Below, piece by piece: positions 38,788 to 44,901 of a stretch of DNA of 64,000 nt. Location: contig JAHIVE010000015.1 of NCBI GenBank assembly GCA_018816805.1, forward strand, positions 31,104-95,103, read 5' to 3'. The stretch is from Patescibacteria group bacterium (GTDB lineage Bacteria; Patescibacteriota; Gracilibacteria; UBA1369; 2-02-FULL-48-14). A program made the translations under genes and the position numbers. Below the pieces are notes generated by a model. It was not told where the DNA came from. It saw nothing but the letters and a program-made list of their open reading frames with translations, and ran no database searches. The first letter of the stretch is position 1. Every line of letters begins with the position of its first letter.

Positions 38788-38862
38788 GTCCCTGTAGTTC
38801 AATGGATAGAACGAGGCTCTCCTAAGGCTTAAATACAGGTTCGATTCCTGTCGGGGACACCA
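38788..38862 (+). tRNA. tRNA-Arg (anticodon CCU) with an encoded CCA
   Basis: The cloverleaf folds by hand. Acceptor GTCCCTG/CGGGGAC, D-arm GTTC..GAAC, anticodon loop CTCCTAA, T-arm ACAGG-TTCGATT-CCTGT, then A-CCA. Confidence 0.9.
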
Positions 38863-39762: not shown

Positions 39763-40170
39763 TTAAAAAAGTTCTGAAAGGGGAATTAAGATGTCCGGGA
39801 TGATTTCTATTAATGGGGTTTTATCCTCTCCCCAGACATGTTTTGTGGTTTTGTAAGGTAGGAGTTTTGCCAGGAGGCCGCTTTCAACAACGAGCTCCTT
39901 TGAAACTTTTATACCCTCTCTGAACGAGAGAACGGAGATATTGTCGTCAAAAATGTCCAATTCGACGACTGGAATGCGTTTTAGGCCAATTTTTTTGGCG
40001 ATTGTCCACCTGTGATGACCGTCAAGAATGATTTTGTGGGTTTTATCCACGACGATTGGTTTTTTAAGATGCTTGTCTTTGCGGATTATTTGCTCGAGGC
40101 GAATGAGGTAGTCTTGGTCAACTTCCTCATGTGGTGAGATTTTTGAGATTTCAAGATAAATAATGTCCAT
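39763..40170 (-). CDS. ParB/sulfiredoxin-fold domain protein (135 aa)
   Basis: 'ISPHEE' and 'KPIVVDKTHKIILDGHHRWTIAKKIGLKRIPV' (DGHHR motif). It lies 10 nt upstream of the cysteine synthase gene on the same strand. Confidence 0.6.
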   Translation of the reverse strand: MDIIYLEISKISPHEEVDQDYLIRLEQIIRKDKHLKKPIVVDKTHKIILDGHHRWTIAKKIGLKRIPVVELDIFDDNISVLSFREGIKVSKELVVESGLLAKLLPYKTTKHVWGEDKTPLIEIIPDILIPLSELF

Positions 40171-40183
40171 ATTTGTGATATTT

Positions 40184-40211
40184 AAAAAAACCGCCCGTGA
40201 ATGCAGGGCGG
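40184..40211 (-). terminator. Terminator-like hairpin plus U7 in the 5' leader of the ParB-fold/cysteine synthase operon, a possible attenuator
   Basis: On the minus-strand RNA: ccgccc, loop tgcattcac, gggcgg, then ttttttt, ending 13 nt before the ATG at 40170. Confidence 0.45.
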
Positions 40212-40346
40212 CTTTTGGTTTTTTATTAAAGATTCGCTAAATTGCCCTGCAGATTATGCAAGGACAACAATATTTGTTATTTAGGTTTTCTTTCCTCATT
40301 TGTGGTCATTTTAACACTTTCTTTGTGGCTGTCCAGTGAAGAAGTA

Positions 40347-40392
40347 TTGACGGTGAGCGCGCACTCACCTACAATGTGAGCACATACTCACC
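40347..40392 (+). promoter_or_regulatory. lexA promoter with two candidate LexA operators (GTGAG-N6-CTCAC)
   Basis: TTGACG (40347-40352), a 17-nt spacer, then TACAAT (40370-40375). Box 1, GGTGAGCGCGCACTCACC (40352-40369), fills the spacer. Box 2, TGTGAGCACATACTCACC (40375-40392), sits just downstream of the -10. Confidence 0.65.
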
Positions 40393-40402
40393 CTAAAGTC
40401 AC

Positions 40403-41020
40403 ATGGAACCAATTACTGAAAAGCAAGAATCCGTTTTGAAATTTATTGAGGATTACCAATTCAAATTTGGTTCTTCCCCTACCCTGCGTGAAATGCGTGA
40501 GCACTTTAATGTGAGCAGTGATAACAGTATCTTAAAACACTTAAAGGCTCTTCAAGAAAAGGGTTATATAGAGAAGGATGATACACCTCGTGGAATAAAA
40601 CTTTTAAATATTGTTAAGGAAAAGCTTACTGCGGCCTCTAATATTGCTCGCATTCCATTGCTTGGTACTATTCCGGCCGGAGGACCTGTTCTGTCTGAAG
40701 AGTATGTTTTAGACTATTTTGAGGTTGGTCAGGATATGCTTAAGAAGCCGCAGGGTTCTTTTGCGCTTCGAGTTAGCGGACTTAGTATGATTGATGCAGG
40801 TATTTTGGAAGGGGATTTTGTGATTGCAAATAGAGATATTGATCCAAAAGATGGGGATATTGTTGTTGCTTTGGTTGATGGCTCAAATACTGTGAAGCGT
40901 TTTAGGAAAAAAGGTCATCAAGTTTGGCTCCAAGCGGAAAATTCTGATTATTCAGATATTGAACCGGGTGAATACCTTGAAGTACAAGGGGTGGTCACTG
41001 CGGTTATTCGTCAATATTAA
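40403..41020 (+). CDS. lexA: LexA repressor
   Basis: N-terminal wHTH 'LREMREHFNVSSDNSILKHLKALQEKGYIEKD', cleavage site 'IPAGGP', S24 peptidase 'GLSM' and 'TVKRF'. Confidence 0.93.
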   Translation: MEPITEKQESVLKFIEDYQFKFGSSPTLREMREHFNVSSDNSILKHLKALQEKGYIEKDDTPRGIKLLNIVKEKLTAASNIARIPLLGTIPAGGPVLSEEYVLDYFEVGQDMLKKPQGSFALRVSGLSMIDAGILEGDFVIANRDIDPKDGDIVVALVDGSNTVKRFRKKGHQVWLQAENSDYSDIEPGEYLEVQGVVTAVIRQY

Positions 41021-41190
41021 TTTAACCACTCCATACCATGTTTACAAAAAAACCATTAAAACGTTTCCACGTTTCTGCAGAAAAAGTTTATTTACCCGGG
41101 AAAAAAACTATTTTGAGAAGGGCAATTTTATTTTTTAGACCTTACACAAAAAAAACTGCTTATAGGATATCGGGAGGATACTTGTTAGCT

Positions 41191-43199
<2,009 letters not shown>

Positions 43200-43200
43200 A

Positions 43201-43446
43201 AAAATCCCACCTGTCTATCAATGAGAATATTTCACTGAGACGAATGGTGGGATTTTAGTTTGAACGGTGACTACGTTCTGTTTTTGTTTCAAAGCCTTGT
43301 TTTGGTCAGGTTTAGGGCCGGACCGGGGCTGCCCCTGACGTGAATTCCGGAGGTGTGCTAGGCAGGAACCAGAGCGGATTCACGGGGCGGAAGAGGGAGT
43401 CTTATTCCCGTGGGCTGTCGATGTCATACGAGAGCCATCACAAAGC
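43201..43446 (+). ncRNA. Candidate structured RNA element, copy 1 (family unidentified). Its 5' hairpin also looks like the eno terminator.
   Basis: Paralogous to 43612-43878, with conserved blocks plus compensatory changes in at least 3 stems (see findings). Strand assignment is tentative, based on a G-U pair in stem 43395-43409. Confidence 0.5.
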
Positions 43447-43465
43447 GATTGATTGATAACTAAAG

Positions 43466-43544
43466 GAACTTTTTTGTTTTTGATTTTTTGTTATCAAATT
43501 AATGTATCAAGTATATATAATTGGTGCAAGGAATAGGGGTGGAC
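43466..43544 (+). repeat. Repeat module A1, a T-rich tract plus a promoter-like region and a conserved GCAAGGAATAG..GTGGAC
   Basis: Aligns with 44044-44123. It contains TATAAT at about 43515-43520. Confidence 0.5.
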
Positions 43545-43611
43545 GTGTTTGAATCTTTGGCATCTATAAGGTTTGCTGTACAACATTTTTGTTCGTTTTT
43601 TCCTTTAAAAG

Positions 43612-43878
43612 AAAACCGGCTTTGTTCCCTGTCTATCAATGAAATAAATTTCACTGAGACACTTTTGGGAGTAAAGCCGGTTTTGCGAATGGTGACCACA
43701 TCATTCTGTTTTTGTTTCACTGCAATGCTTTGGTCAAGTTTATGGCCGGACCGGGGCTGCCCTTTACGTGATTTTGGTCACTATATCCGGAGACAGGGAG
43801 TGAAAATGCAAAATCACAGAGCGGTATTGAGAGTCTTTCTCTCATGGGTCCTCTGGTCAAAGAGGTCCATCACAAAGC
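43612..43878 (+). ncRNA. Candidate structured RNA element, copy 2 (family unidentified)
   Basis: Shares 'ctgtctatcaatga.ata.atttcactgagac', 'ttctgtttttgtttca', 'ggccggaccggggctgccc', 'cagagcgg' and 'ccatcacaaagc' with copy 1. The stems differ but remain complementary. Confidence 0.5.
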
Positions 43879-44043
43879 AGAAAATGGGCACGAGCTGTTA
43901 GTACGACGGTATCGTACCCACATCCCGCTTTGCGAGCATGGGGCCTCAGAAAATAGATTCTGAGGTGGCCACAGGCGTCTAATTTTGAGACGCTACAACT
44001 GAATGGATGCTCCCTTTCGGTCGTGTGTGGTCGAAATTTCAAA

Positions 44044-44123
44044 GAACTTTTTTTTGTTTTTATTTTTATGTTTCATAACAATGTATCAAATTCAAGATTC
44101 TGGCGCAAGGAATAGTAGTGGAC
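44044..44123 (+). repeat. Repeat module A2, a paralogue of A1 located ~90 nt upstream of sdaAB
   Basis: gaacttttttttgtttttatttttatgtttcataacaatgtatcaaa..tggcgcaaggaatagtagtggac aligns with A1. Confidence 0.5.
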
Positions 44124-44214
44124 TAGCATTGTGTTTATTTTGTGGTTCGATGTATGACAGGTTTAGCTTTACGTTTTCAATTAAGACGTTTAAACTGCAA
44201 TCATAATAATTTAT

Positions 44215-44901
44215 ATGACGACGTTTTCCGTCTTCGATATAGCGGGTCCGGTAATGGTTGGTCCATCCAGCTCTCATACAGCAGGTGCGGCTAAACTGGG
44301 TCAGTTTGCGAGGGCAATTTTTGATTCGACTCCTACAAAAGTGCATTTTTTGCTACATGGTTCTTTTGGAGAAGTTTTTAAGGGTCATGCAACGGATAGG
44401 GCTCTTTTGGCGGGGGTTATGAAATATCCTCCTAATGATCCTGCAATAAAGAATGCTTTTGAAATTGCGCAAAAACAGGGGCTTCACTATAAGTTTGAGG
44501 TTGGGAATTTGGGATATAATGTGCATCCGAATACGGTTTTGATTACAATGGACAACTTTAAGAGAAAAGTTAGTGTGATGGGGTCGAGTATTGGGGGTGG
44601 AAATGTGGAAATTATTAGAATAAATGATTTTGATATTCATCTAACCGGGAATAGCGCGGAGCAGTTTTTTACTCTGGTGGTGGAGAATGAGAATTTGCCG
44701 GGTATGCTTGCAAAAACGACCAGTTATTTAGGAAAAAAGAAAATTCGCATTGTGAATATGCAGAGTTCGTATTTGGCGGGGGAAAATAAGGTTTTGTCTG
44801 TGCTTAGTTTGGAACAGCCGCTAAATTTGGATGAGATTTTGGAACTTGAAAAAGAGGAGGGCATAATTTTTGTTCGTTCGCTTCTTAAATTGACTCAATA
44901 A
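44215..44901 (+). CDS. sdaAB: L-serine dehydratase, iron-sulfur-dependent, beta subunit
   Basis: 'SVFDIAGPVMVGPSSSHTAGAAKLG' with a C-terminal ACT-like region. Confidence 0.9.
   Translation: MTTFSVFDIAGPVMVGPSSSHTAGAAKLGQFARAIFDSTPTKVHFLLHGSFGEVFKGHATDRALLAGVMKYPPNDPAIKNAFEIAQKQGLHYKFEVGNLGYNVHPNTVLITMDNFKRKVSVMGSSIGGGNVEIIRINDFDIHLTGNSAEQFFTLVVENENLPGMLAKTTSYLGKKKIRIVNMQSSYLAGENKVLSVLSLEQPLNLDEILELEKEEGIIFVRSLLKLTQ

What the first reader, a model, noticed from the sequence alone, without database searches (positions are those of the whole stretch)
43201..43878. Two paralogous ~250-nt non-coding elements with conserved cores and compensatory stem changes between eno and sdaAB
The eno-sdaAB gap is ~1 kb, which is unusually long for this tightly packed window. 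Copy 1 is 43201-43446 and copy 2 is 43612-43878.

Blocks shared almost exactly:
- ctgtctatcaatga.ata.atttcactgagac
- ttctgtttttgtttca
- ggccggaccggggctgccc
- cagagcgg
- ccatcacaaagc

The sequences flanking these blocks differ but stay complementary:
1. The outer stem around the first block is aaaatcccacc/ggtgggatttt in copy 1 and aaaaccggcttt/aaagccggtttt in copy 2.
2. The hairpin is GGGAG-tctta-TTCCC (43395-43409) in copy 1 and GAGAG-tcttt-CTCTC (43829-43843) in copy 2.
3. The next hairpin is ggctgtcg..cgagagcc in copy 1 and ggtcctct..agaggtcc in copy 2. Each has one mismatch.
4. gtcagg/cctgac in copy 1 corresponds to gtcaag/ctttac in copy 2, where a G-C pair becomes A-T.

A G-T pair in stem 2 of copy 1 favours the plus strand.

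Inference: these are two copies of a structured RNA of a family I cannot name. I see no match to the tRNA, tmRNA, RNase P, SRP, 6S, T-box or glycine riboswitch signatures I know.
Basis: seen in the sequence. Interest (0 to 1): 0.72.

Follow-up and report, generated by a model that had tools for sequence, protein, structure and literature searches.

The report
Tandem genes for undescribed structured RNA
The long gap between the enolase and serine dehydratase genes holds two tandem copies of a gene for a highly structured non-coding RNA that matches no catalogued RNA family, is read from the opposite strand to the one proposed, and recurs next to the serine dehydratase operon across an uncultured bacterial phylum (Peregrinibacteria).

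Summary
The two repeats are real (BLASTN E 6e-26), but each belongs to a larger unit of about 300 nt (copy 1) or 465 nt (copy 2).

Each unit looks like a complete gene on the MINUS strand:
- a sigma-70-type promoter (TTGNNN-N17-TANNNT);
- an A/C-rich leader;
- a five-helix core;
- a second (CAAAAA)n tract;
- a small hairpin (P2);
- a long-stem terminator followed by U5-8.

I found 23 further non-redundant units in about 20 Peregrinibacteria/Patescibacteria assemblies. All lie divergent from sdaAB-sdaAA, even where the other neighbour is not eno. Three genomes carry tandem pairs.

Covariation is strong: 31 of 41 core pairs show compensatory changes, and 0 of 500 shuffles reach that. Five lines favour the minus strand: promoter and terminator conservation, G·U versus A·C asymmetry, C(UNCG)G tetraloops, and higher covariance-model scores on held-out homologues.

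No Rfam family, tRNA/tmRNA, phage or plasmid sequence, or paper matches.

Its stem 4 and its strand call do not.

Function is unknown. My best guess is a stand-alone protein- or ligand-binding regulatory RNA co-controlled with serine catabolism.

The parts
43198..43494 (-). Predicted transcript of RNA gene copy 1 (about 297 nt), from the inferred start about 7 nt downstream of the -10 box to the end of the terminator U-run. The 3' end overlaps the eno stop codon (43197-43199).
   Evidence: Sequence read. Promoter and terminator positions fixed by alignment to 20 homologous units. Transcript ends are inferred, not measured.
43501..43529 (-). Promoter of copy 1: -35 TTGCAC (43529-43524), 17-nt spacer, -10 TACATT (43506-43501), with TG at the extended -10 position.
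   Evidence: The same TTGNNN-N17-TANNNT arrangement sits at the aligned position in all 17 units that include this region, and with a 16-18-nt spacer in 5 divergent members.
43453..43497 (-). 5' hairpin of copy 1 (arms 43453-43464 and 43486-43497) enclosing A/C-rich tract 1 (AAAAAAUCAAAAACAAAAAAG, 43469-43490).
   Evidence: Inverted repeat I6, 92% complementary. The tract is conserved across the family.
43290..43449 (-). Structured core of copy 1. Closing helix PA encloses hairpins PB, PC, PD and PE. The near-invariant junction AGCCCCGGUCCGGCCCUAAA lies between PD and PE.
   Evidence: Covariance model R1: 127.5 bits, E 1e-30. Helices.
43276..43291 (-). A/C-rich tract 2 of copy 1 (UGAAACAAAAACAGAA on the minus strand; TTCTGTTTTTGTTTCA on the plus strand).
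   Evidence: (D1). TTCTGTTTTTGTTT is identical in 17 of 18 aligned units; L005b differs.
43262..43278 (-). Hairpin P2 of copy 1 (GAACG/CGUUC), with GUC in the conserved loop.
   Evidence: helix 10; 2 of 5 pairs covary. On the plus strand the simple scan flags it as terminator-like.
43198..43256 (-). P1, the intrinsic terminator of copy 1: stem arms 43246-43256 and 43201-43211, followed by U7 (43204-43198).
   Evidence: I5, 11 bp, 100% complementary. Sequence. U-tail statistics.
43608..44073 (-). Predicted transcript of RNA gene copy 2 (about 465 nt).
   Evidence: Alignment to homologues. Ends are inferred.
44080..44108 (-). Promoter of copy 2: -35 TTGCGC (44108-44103), 17-nt spacer, -10 TACATT (44085-44080).
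44047..44070 (-). A/C-rich tract 1 of copy 2 (CAUAAAAAUAAAAACAAAAAAAAG).
   Evidence: D2.
43886..44046 (-). Insertion of several local hairpins specific to copy 2, at the family's variable site between tract 1 and helix PA.
   Evidence: Absent from copy 1. Other members (L010-L012, L024, L033) carry unrelated insertions at the same site.
43718..43881 (-). Structured core of copy 2 (PA, PB, PC, PD with a C(UCCG)G tetraloop, PE).
   Evidence: R1: 149.5 bits, E 2e-36. Helices.
43704..43719 (-). A/C-rich tract 2 of copy 2.
   Evidence: (D1).
43687..43706 (-). Hairpin P2 of copy 2.
43607..43684 (-). P1, the intrinsic terminator of copy 2: 18-bp stem (43612-43629 and 43667-43684) followed by UUUUCUUUU.
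   Evidence: I2, 89% complementary..
43539..43544 (.). Conserved GTGGAC box just upstream of the copy 1 promoter. A second instance lies at 44118-44123, upstream of the copy 2 promoter. Possible regulator or UP-type site in the control region shared with sdaAB.
   Evidence: D4. The box is conserved in most homologues. Its function was not tested.

Best explanation
**What it is.** The eno-sdaAB spacer holds two tandem, complete genes for a previously undescribed structured non-coding RNA. Both are transcribed from the minus strand, convergent with eno and divergent from sdaAB.

**Anatomy of each gene (supported by sequence and comparative evidence)**
- its own sigma-70-type promoter;
- a 5' hairpin;
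- an A/C-rich (CAAAAA)n tract;
- a variable insertion site;
- a core in which helix PA closes a junction of four hairpins (PB, PC, PD with a UNCG tetraloop, PE);
- a near-invariant strand AGCCCCGGUCCGGCC(A/C)UAAA between PD and PE;
- a second (CAAAAA)n tract;
- hairpin P2;
- a long-stem intrinsic terminator, P1.

**How it works (inferred, roughly 30% sure).** It is a stable stand-alone RNA. The folded junction with its invariant strand binds a specific protein or small ligand. The single-stranded A/C-rich tracts bind a single-strand RNA-binding protein or U-rich RNA. Because the gene is always paired back-to-back with the sdaAB-sdaAA(-purN) operon, it is probably co-regulated with serine-to-pyruvate catabolism, or helps regulate it. 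The tandem copies raise dosage or have begun to diverge.
For: **Family and synteny**
- A pattern scan of GTDB genomes and JGI metagenomes gave 20 non-redundant units.
- Looking up contigs of SdaAB homologues gave 5 more divergent units.
- Model R1 detects all of them: E 3e-19 to 6e-06 for the held-out ones. It finds none in two loci whose spacers are too short.
- Every unit lies on the strand opposite sdaAB. In L031 and L036 the other neighbour is an MS-channel gene rather than eno; in L009 and L033 it is another non-eno ORF.
- Tandem pairs also occur in L005/L020 and L021.

**Structure**
- 18 sequences: 97.5% of cells paired; 30 of 57 pairs with changes on both sides against 14.2±2.0 in shuffles (0/500); slid controls give at most 11.
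- 24 distinct sequences: 31 of 41 core pairs compensatory, 96.5% paired, 0/500.

**Strand**
- Promoter TTGNNN-N17-TANNNT in 17 of 17 units, and with a 16-18-nt spacer in 5 of 5 divergent members.
- The terminator stem is followed by an uninterrupted U5-8 on the minus strand: mean 6.3 U in 8 nt, against 3.6 on the plus strand.
- In the minus-strand model about 100 cells are G·U and 3 are A·C.
- The plus-strand fold loses PA and PD-outer, shows C·A mismatches in PB, and has half the covariation term (-4.82 against -9.55).
- The PD tip is C(UUCG)G or C(UCCG)G in 13 of 18 units.
- With equal information content, the minus model scores held-out members 82.7/77.8/46.2/36.0/31.1 bits. The plus model scores 68.4/61.9/37.3 and misses two.

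**Independence from sdaAB**
- sdaAB has its own TTGCNA-N17-CATA(A/C)T promoter 12-27 nt upstream of its ATG in several genomes.

**Not coding**
- No ORF frame is conserved; insertions and deletions are not multiples of three.
Against: - There are no expression data. Transcript ends, stability and abundance are all inferred.
On the minus strand the matching positions are C opposite A.
- On the plus strand, P2 plus TGTTTTTGTT scores as an intrinsic terminator. Part of the conservation could therefore serve eno termination.
- The simple promoter scan did not flag my promoter in the window (8 of 12 consensus matches). It flagged an overlapping TTGATA-16-AAAAAT instead.
- Nothing here identifies a partner protein or ligand.
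- Conserved synteny with sdaAB could be inherited gene order rather than a functional link.
- The proposed PB-P2 loop-loop contact is not statistically supported.
Confidence: 0.7

Rival explanations
1. A plus-strand cis-regulatory leader, present as a tandem riboswitch-like or attenuator element. It would lie in a long eno-sdaAB read-through transcript or a long sdaAB 5' UTR and control the serine dehydratase operon.
For: - The element is always upstream of sdaAB whatever the other neighbour. This is the classic signature of a cis-regulator.
- Tandem copies recall tandem riboswitches.
- Two helices are fully paired only on the plus strand, through G·U pairs.
- P2 plus a T-tract resembles a plus-strand terminator.
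Against: - No plus-strand promoter lies upstream of the core.
- On the plus strand the terminator-like hairpin comes before the structured core, the wrong order for a riboswitch.
- sdaAB has its own promoter 12-27 nt from its ATG.
- A canonical minus-strand promoter and U-tailed terminator flank every unit.
- PB, PA and PD-outer acquire A·C mismatches on the plus strand.
- The plus-specific helices show no compensatory change.
- The plus-strand covariance model scores held-out members lower.
- No riboswitch or T-box family in Rfam matches.
Confidence: 0.08
2. A DNA- or transcription-level spacer. On this view the hairpins and T/A tracts are bidirectional terminators and insulators separating eno from sdaAB, the conserved boxes are protein-binding sites, and there is no functional RNA product.
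For: - P1 is flanked by an A-run and a partly U-rich tail, so it could act in both directions.
- P2 plus the T-tract is terminator-like on the plus strand.
- In L030 the A/C tract sits directly next to the terminator hairpin.
Against: - Terminators do not need a 160-nt five-helix junction with 31 covarying pairs, or a 16-21-nt strand that is invariant across genera.
- The core is kept even where P2 is lost (L030) and where the upstream gene differs (L031, L033, L036).
- Each unit keeps a dedicated promoter pointing into the structure.
Confidence: 0.05
3. A classical base-pairing small RNA that represses or activates sdaAB by pairing with its translation-initiation region.
For: - The gene is independent and divergent from sdaAB.
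- It has C-rich and anti-SD-like single-stranded motifs: CUCCCUG in the PD internal loop and CGACCUUUCA in the 5' domain.
Against: - RNAduplex of each RNA against its own sdaAB -60..+30 region gives z-scores of -1.4 to +1.6 against shuffles, with no conserved interaction site.
- Its size (215-640 nt), elaborate conserved core and invariant junction are atypical for seed-type small RNAs.
- Other targets were not tested.
Confidence: 0.07
4. Remnants of a recent local duplication of decaying coding sequence, or a small-protein gene.
For: - Mechanical ORFs overlap the region, for example 43521-43901 on the plus strand (126 aa) and 43499-43720 on the minus strand (73 aa).
- An AUG precedes tract 2 in 12 of 18 units.
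Against: - No ORF or reading frame is shared between the two copies or among homologues.
- Insertions and deletions are not multiples of three.
- Substitutions are compensatory within stems.
- The AUG is absent or frame-shifted in W1, W2, L008-L012 and L024.
Confidence: 0.02

Closest known systems
Large or complex orphan bacterial ncRNAs found by comparative genomics (raiA motif RNA, OLE, ROOL, GOLLD, HEARO). Comparison drawn from my own knowledge of these classes.
   Same: - A stand-alone gene.
- A multi-helix structure supported by covariation.
- Extremely conserved junction nucleotides.
- A variable insertion site.
- A restricted phylogenetic range.
- Biochemical function unknown at discovery.
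   Different: - No covariance-model match to any of them.
- A different architecture: a PA-closed four-hairpin junction flanked by two (CAAAAA)n tracts.
- Size 215-640 nt.
- Confined to Peregrinibacteria and related Patescibacteria.
- Fixed divergent pairing with sdaAB.
- Often tandemly duplicated.
CrcZ/CrcY/CrcX of Pseudomonas: protein-sequestering RNAs with A-rich Hfq/Crc-binding motifs (own knowledge).
   Same: - A stand-alone RNA of about 400 nt.
- Repeated A-rich motifs that fit the ARN pattern (AAC AAA AAC AAA).
- A link to control of carbon and amino-acid catabolism.
- Paralogous copies in some genomes.
   Different: - Only two tracts here, against five or six in CrcZ.
- An elaborate conserved folded core that CrcZ lacks.
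- A sigma-70-type rather than a sigma-54-type promoter.
- No evidence that these bacteria encode Hfq or Crc.
- No sequence homology and no Rfam hit.
Tandemly duplicated small RNA genes such as PrrF1/PrrF2 and OmrA/OmrB (own knowledge).
   Same: Adjacent paralogous RNA genes in the same orientation, each with its own promoter and terminator.
   Different: Those are Hfq-dependent base-pairing RNAs of 90-150 nt with simple structures. The copies here are 300-465 nt, only about 78% identical, and share a complex fold.
Tandem riboswitches and tandem T-box leaders, such as the glycine riboswitch (own knowledge).
   Same: Two related structured modules in the spacer upstream of an amino-acid metabolism operon.
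   Different: - Opposite strand to the operon.
- Each module has its own promoter and terminator.
- The operon has its own promoter downstream.
- No match to RF00230, RF00504 or any other riboswitch model.
Divergently transcribed small RNA-gene pairs (micF-ompC, gcvB-gcvA, oxyS-oxyR) (own knowledge).
   Same: The RNA gene sits back-to-back with a protein-coding gene, and they share an intergenic control region that is conserved across species.
   Different: In those pairs the partner is usually a regulator or a co-regulated porin gene, and the RNA is short. Here the partner is a metabolic operon, and no regulatory link has been shown.

Membership tests
Any Rfam 15 family (4227 covariance models) | Bit score at or above the family's gathering threshold | tested here: not met
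   - Whole window at gathering thresholds: only a tRNA at 38788-38859.
- Window 43100-44300 at E<=10: only noise, bantam 18.5 bits and COG3860 12.7 bits.
- Seven homologous loci at E<=5: nothing in the element.
tmRNA / tRNA | tRNA-like acceptor/T-arm domain (plus a tag reading frame for tmRNA) detectable by ARAGORN | tested here: not met
   ARAGORN finds 0 genes in 43000-44400.
6S RNA | A rod-like hairpin of about 180 nt with a large central bubble | tested here: not met
   The covariation-supported fold is a multi-branched junction. Length is 215-640 nt. RF00013 gives no hit.
T-box leader | Stem I with a specifier loop, plus the conserved T-box/antiterminator sequence (UGGN bulge), on the same strand as the regulated gene | tested here: not met
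   The plus-strand box GGTGGAC loosely resembles GGGUGGNACC. It varies to CTCGAC and GTAGAC in homologues and lies upstream of the minus-strand promoter. RF00230 gives no hit.
Cobalamin riboswitch | B12 box (AGYCMGGAGACCKGCC) together with the GCCACUG core | tested here: not met
   AGCCCCGGUCCGGCC shares only part of the B12-box pattern. There is no GCCACUG. RF00174 gives no hit.
Riboswitch or cis-regulatory 5' leader (generic) | Lies in the 5' UTR on the same strand as the regulated gene, with the expression platform downstream of the aptamer | tested here: not met
   Strand evidence favours the opposite strand. sdaAB has its own promoter close to its ATG. On the plus strand the terminator-like hairpin precedes the core.
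Stand-alone bacterial ncRNA gene | Its own promoter at a fixed distance upstream of the conserved RNA | tested here: met
   TTGNNN-N17-TANNNT in 17 of 17 units, and with a 16-18-nt spacer in 5 of 5 divergent members. Window copies checked. This rests on sequence conservation only; no transcript data exist.
Stand-alone bacterial ncRNA gene | Its own intrinsic terminator at the 3' end | tested here: met
   A long G+C-based stem followed by U5-8 on the minus strand in 18 of 18 units and in the divergent members.
Stand-alone bacterial ncRNA gene | A secondary structure conserved through compensatory changes | tested here: met
   30 of 57 pairs and 31 of 41 pairs show changes on both sides; 0 of 500 shuffles reach that.
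Stand-alone bacterial ncRNA gene | A discrete transcript detected experimentally | not testable with these tools
Hfq/Crc-sequestering RNAs (CrcZ type) | Multiple single-stranded A-rich ARN/CA motifs | tested here: inconclusive
   Two (CAAAAA)n tracts per RNA fit the ARN pattern and are conserved across the family. There are only two per RNA, and the CrcZ model gives no hit.
Hfq/Crc-sequestering RNAs (CrcZ type) | A cognate Hfq/Crc protein encoded in the genome and bound by the RNA | not tested
   The genomes were not searched for Hfq or Crc. Binding cannot be tested here.

The most novel reading that the evidence does not exclude
This is a new class of complex-folded RNA specific to the Candidate Phyla Radiation. 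Its invariant junction would form a catalytic or metabolite-sensing site, making it a trans-acting riboswitch-like sensor or a ribonucleoprotein enzyme component. It would be functionally coupled to the serine dehydratase / pyruvate:ferredoxin branch, which is one of the few energy-yielding routes in these reduced genomes.
Probability: 0.15. Interest if true: 0.85.

Novelty: new variant of a known kind. Interest (0 to 1): 0.62.

Why it matters
- **Rarity.** Structured non-coding RNAs with this much covariation, several hundred nucleotides long and with near-invariant junction strands, are rare. In the past they have turned out to be ribozymes, riboswitch-like sensors or ribonucleoprotein scaffolds.
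- **Setting.** This one occurs in uncultured, genome-reduced Peregrinibacteria (Candidate Phyla Radiation), where I found no description of it in Rfam or in the paper library. Genomes of about 1 Mb keep it, often in two copies. It is locked next to the serine-to-pyruvate operon, which suggests it matters for their limited energy metabolism.
- **Practical use.** The covariance model built here can be used to annotate the family and to map its distribution.
- **Lesson.** In G/T-skewed genomes, reading the strand from a single G-T pair is unsafe.

Tried and rejected
1. **Known RNA families.** Rfam at gathering and relaxed thresholds on the window and on 7 homologous loci gave no family. ARAGORN gave none.
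2. **Viral contigs.** A scan with the 18-mer core returned only chance hits in G+C-rich coding DNA. The Opitutaceae (L006), L027 and L029 hits are chance too.
3. **Recalled resemblances.**
   - T-box-like GGTGGAC, B12-box-like AGCCCCGG..CCGGCC, SRP domain IV GGUCCGG and RNase P AGAUGAA...ACAGAA: each fails on conservation or context and has no model hit.
   - C/D-box or K-turn reading of CAATGA...CTGAGAC in the P1 apex: the motif is shared by only a subset (W1, W2, L024, L032, L033), and it forms a plain stem with a G·U pair on the minus strand.
4. **Small ORF starting at the AUG before tract 2.** The frame and the AUG are not conserved.
5. **Pseudoknot scan over all column pairs.** Nothing appears beyond the nested helices.
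6. **Loop-loop contact between PB (U)GAC and P2 GUC(A).** It is attractive: GAU/AUC in L005b and L021b, and both loops lost together in L030. It is not significant.
7. **Antisense pairing with the sdaAB start region.** No signal (a first attempt timed out).
8. **Phage or plasmid origin.** No BLAST match.
9. **Literature.** Nothing on ncRNAs in Peregrinibacteria or the CPR.
10. **G·U versus A·C count restricted to pairs predicted on both strands.** Uninformative (37 against 31), because that intersection excludes the strand-specific pairs and is dominated by the poorly aligned terminator interior.
11. **An earlier guess at an sdaAB promoter (TTGTTT...TAAYCT).** Replaced by the better-conserved TTGCNA-N17-CATAAT next to the ATG.
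Full report
**1. The observation**

The window comes from an ENA metagenome contig of 97 kb (ERZ27247128 k141_1820065). Enolase ends at 43199 and sdaAB starts at 44215, both on the plus strand.

BLASTN of copy 1 against the whole window finds only copy 2 (78% over 148 nt, E 6e-26). The 19-mer GGCCGGACCGGGGCTGCCC occurs exactly twice, with 0 expected. The repeat finder recovers the listed blocks.

- A second repeated module follows each copy (43462-43544 and 44041-44123; D2, D4).
- Copy 2 carries about 160 extra bases (43886-44046).

An HMM and a covariance model of the core find no third copy in the 64 kb.

**2. It is a family, not a local oddity**

A pattern scan of one genome per GTDB species with TTTANGGCCGGACCGGGGCTG returned 12 loci. 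Eleven are MAGs labelled Peregrinibacteria, Peribacteria or Gracilibacteria, and they align over the whole element. One Opitutaceae hit is chance.

A metagenome scan added further members. After removing duplicates there are 20 non-redundant units, 18 of them near-complete.

In all loci with enough flanking sequence, the element lies upstream of sdaAB-sdaAA(-purN) and usually downstream of eno.

Tandem pairs also occur in L005 (a complete 1.3-Mb chromosome, OZ246396.1) and in L021.

To reach members without the exact core, I searched SdaAB homologues and fetched their contigs. The results:

| Locus | SdaAB identity | Element present | Neighbour / note |
|---|---|---|---|
| L032 | 69% | yes | eno |
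| L030 | 63% | yes | eno |
| L033 | 56% | yes | neighbour is not eno |
| L036 | 54% | yes | mechanosensitive-channel gene |
| L031 | 53% | yes | mechanosensitive-channel gene |
| L034 | 53% (Magasanikbacteria) | no | spacer only 127 nt |
| L035 | 55% | no | spacer only 48 nt |

Covariance model R1, built only from the 18 close units, detects the five held-out members at E 3e-19 to 6e-06. The constant partner is therefore sdaAB, not eno.

**3. Structure**

RNAalifold on the minus-strand alignment gives these helices:
- PA, a closing helix;
- PB, hairpin with a UGAC loop;
- PC, hairpin;
- PD, a long hairpin with an outer 5-bp helix, internal loops and a tetraloop;
- PE, a short hairpin;
- outside PA: an A/C-rich tract, hairpin P2 and the long hairpin P1.

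Covariation statistics:

| Alignment | Cells paired | Pairs changed on both sides | Shuffles reaching this | Other control |
|---|---|---|---|---|
| 18 sequences | 97.5% | 30 of 57 (shuffles 14.2±2.0) | 0 of 500 | slid partners give at most 11 |
| 24 distinct sequences, incl. divergent members | 96.5% | 31 of 41 core pairs | 0 of 500 | alignment is model-fitted, which flatters the numbers somewhat |

PE gains compensatory support only from the divergent members: GGUC/GACC becomes GGAA/UUCC in L031 and GGA/UCC in L032.

The strand between PD and PE, AGCCCCGGUCCGGCC(A/C)UAAA, is identical in all 18 close units and partly conserved in the distant ones.

- Stem 1 is P1, stem 2 is PC, stem 3 is PB. 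All three stand.
- Stem 4 does not stand. It competes with PD-outer, which is 100% paired and has 4-5 covarying pairs.

**4. Which strand**

(a) *Promoter.* Read on the minus strand, the second module is a canonical promoter. Its -35 box is one of TTGATA, TTGCAC, TTGACC, TTGCAA or TTGAAA. A 17-nt spacer follows. Its -10 box is one of TATATT, TACATT, TACAAT, TATAAT or TATAGT. It is present at the aligned position in all 17 units that include the region.

The five divergent members have otherwise unalignable flanks, yet each has the same kind of promoter:

| Member | -35 | Spacer | -10 |
|---|---|---|---|
| L030 | TTGCGA | 16 | TATAAT |
| L031 | TTGCGC | 17 | TATAAT |
| L032 | TTGCAA | 16 | TATAAT |
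| L033 | TTGACT | 16 | TACAAT |
| L036 | TTGCGT | 18 | TATAGT |

In the window:

| Copy | -35 | -10 |
|---|---|---|
| 1 | 43529-43524 | 43506-43501 |
| 2 | 44108-44103 | 44085-44080 |

(b) *Terminator.* On the minus strand P1 is followed by an uninterrupted U5-8 in 18 of 18 units. The mean is 6.3 U in 8 nt, against 3.6 interrupted U on the plus strand.

(c) *G·U versus A·C.* In the minus-strand consensus about 100 cells are G·U and 3 are A·C. Several PB stems, L007 for example, form only on the minus strand. The plus-strand fold loses PA and PD-outer, shows C·A mismatches in PB, and has half the covariation term (-4.82 against -9.55).

(d) *Tetraloops.* The tip of PD is C(UUCG)G or C(UCCG)G in 13 of 18 units. 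These are hyper-stable RNA tetraloops (established knowledge). The plus-strand complement, CGAA, has no such status.

(e) *Model comparison.* Two covariance models of equal length and information content were built from the same sequences in the two orientations. Scores on the held-out members:

| Member | Minus model (bits) | Plus model (bits) |
|---|---|---|
| L032 | 82.7 | 68.4 |
| L030 | 77.8 | 61.9 |
| L033 | 46.2 | 37.3 |
| L031 | 36.0 | not found |
| L036 | 31.1 | not found |

Evidence the other way:
- Two helices are fully paired only on the plus strand, through G·U pairs: CUUUGGUC/GACCGGGG and stem 4. They show essentially no compensatory change, and stem 4 breaks in L032.
- The plus strand is G+T-rich, so spurious G·U helices are expected there.
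- P2 followed by TGTTTTTGTT is flagged as terminator-like on the plus strand. It may really help terminate eno, so part of the 3' region may serve two purposes.

I put the minus strand at about 85-90%.

**5. Relation to sdaAB**

sdaAB has its own promoter-like TTGCNA-N17-CATA(A/C)T only 12-27 nt upstream of its ATG in L005, L007, L014, L017 and L022. The element is therefore not in the sdaAB 5' UTR.

The layout is: eno → ← RNA1 ← RNA2 | sdaAB →. The RNA and sdaAB promoters sit back-to-back, about 200 bp apart. Conserved boxes (GTGGAC, AAATTGTTTCA, TTTTAAYCTGA) lie between them.

RNAduplex finds no conserved complementarity between the RNA and the sdaAB start region (z from -1.4 to +1.6).

**6. 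What it is and how it may work**

*Supported by the evidence above:* two tandem stand-alone genes for a structured RNA, with predicted transcripts of about 297 nt (43198-43494) and 465 nt (43608-44073). They belong to a family of 215-640-nt RNAs with a conserved 160-nt junction core, two (CAAAAA)n tracts and a variable insertion site.

*Inferred:* the RNA acts on its own.
- The fold and the invariant junction strand imply a specific protein or ligand partner, as in other complex-folded ncRNAs.
- The A/C tracts fit the ARN pattern bound by Hfq-type proteins. They could equally be flexible linkers.
- The conserved back-to-back pairing with sdaAB suggests co-regulation with serine-to-pyruvate catabolism. 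In these loci the operon is followed by ferredoxin and 2-oxoacid:ferredoxin oxidoreductase genes.

No step of this mechanism has been tested.

**7. Comparison with known systems**

No Rfam family matches on either strand. There is no tRNA or tmRNA, no phage or plasmid similarity and no literature.

By kind, it is closest to the lineage-restricted orphan structured ncRNAs (raiA, OLE, ROOL). Its A-rich tracts and metabolic linkage recall CrcZ. Its tandem arrangement recalls PrrF1/PrrF2. It is a member of none of these. See the membership table.

**8. Verdict**

- The interpretation as a structured RNA of an unnamed family is right.
- The strand, the extent and one stem are wrong.

This is a credible new ncRNA family in a poorly studied phylum, with unusually strong comparative support and no known function. 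Interest 0.62.

Noticed in passing
window 44181-44214; L005, L007, L014, L017, L022 upstream of sdaAB: sdaAB appears to have its own promoter (TTGCNA-N17-CATAAT or CATACT) only 12-27 nt upstream of its ATG, which implies a very short leader. In the window the best match is TTAAGA...CATAAT/AATAAT, ending 5-7 nt before the ATG, so the mRNA may be nearly leaderless. No clear Shine-Dalgarno sequence is visible.
   Followed up: partly
window 43539-43560 and 44118-44140; homologous loci: Between the RNA promoter and the sdaAB promoter lie conserved plus-strand boxes: GTGGAC, AAATTGTTTCA and TTTTAAYCTGA. They may be binding sites for a regulator shared by the two divergent promoters. Copy 1 in the window keeps only GTGGAC.
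   Followed up: no
window 43212-43244 and 43630-43660; L024, L032, L033: The apex of terminator hairpin P1 carries a motif (minus strand: CUCAGUGA...UCAUUGAUAG). It is shared by both window copies and by distant members (L032, L033), while other members have unrelated apices. The stem has a G·U pair on the minus strand, which is A·C on the plus strand. It may be a protein-binding module or an exchanged hairpin tip.
   Followed up: partly
window 43262-43291 and 43687-43719, plus strand: On the plus strand, P2 plus TGTTTTTGTT is scored as an intrinsic terminator. It could terminate eno transcription, so the 3' part of the RNA gene may serve both strands.
   Followed up: partly
L005 755-1790 (OZ246396.1); L021 1-730: Tandem pairs of the RNA gene also exist in two other genomes. 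The sdaAB-proximal copies of L005 and L021 share derived features (AAGAGUAGCCCC..GGCCCUAAA; loops GAU/AUC). This suggests an old duplication with two subtypes rather than independent recent events. The P1 hairpins within a genome are nearly identical, which hints at gene conversion.
   Followed up: partly
window 1-64000: There is a strong positive GC skew on the plus strand over almost the whole window: typically +0.15 to +0.39, G+C about 0.39-0.48. This fits one replichore with most genes co-oriented, and the RNA genes lie on the other strand. A similar strand disparity has been reported for another CPR genome (title of PMC7143001, seen).
   Followed up: no
window 39763-41838 (L001 863-2938): Upstream of eno are a ParB_N-like small protein, a LexA repressor and an MBL-fold hydrolase. 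The MBL hydrolase-eno pairing is conserved in most homologous loci.
   Followed up: no
L030 2125-2500: The shortest family member (about 215 nt) lacks hairpin P2, and its PB loop has no UGAC. The two elements I suspected of forming a loop-loop contact are therefore missing together.
   Followed up: partly
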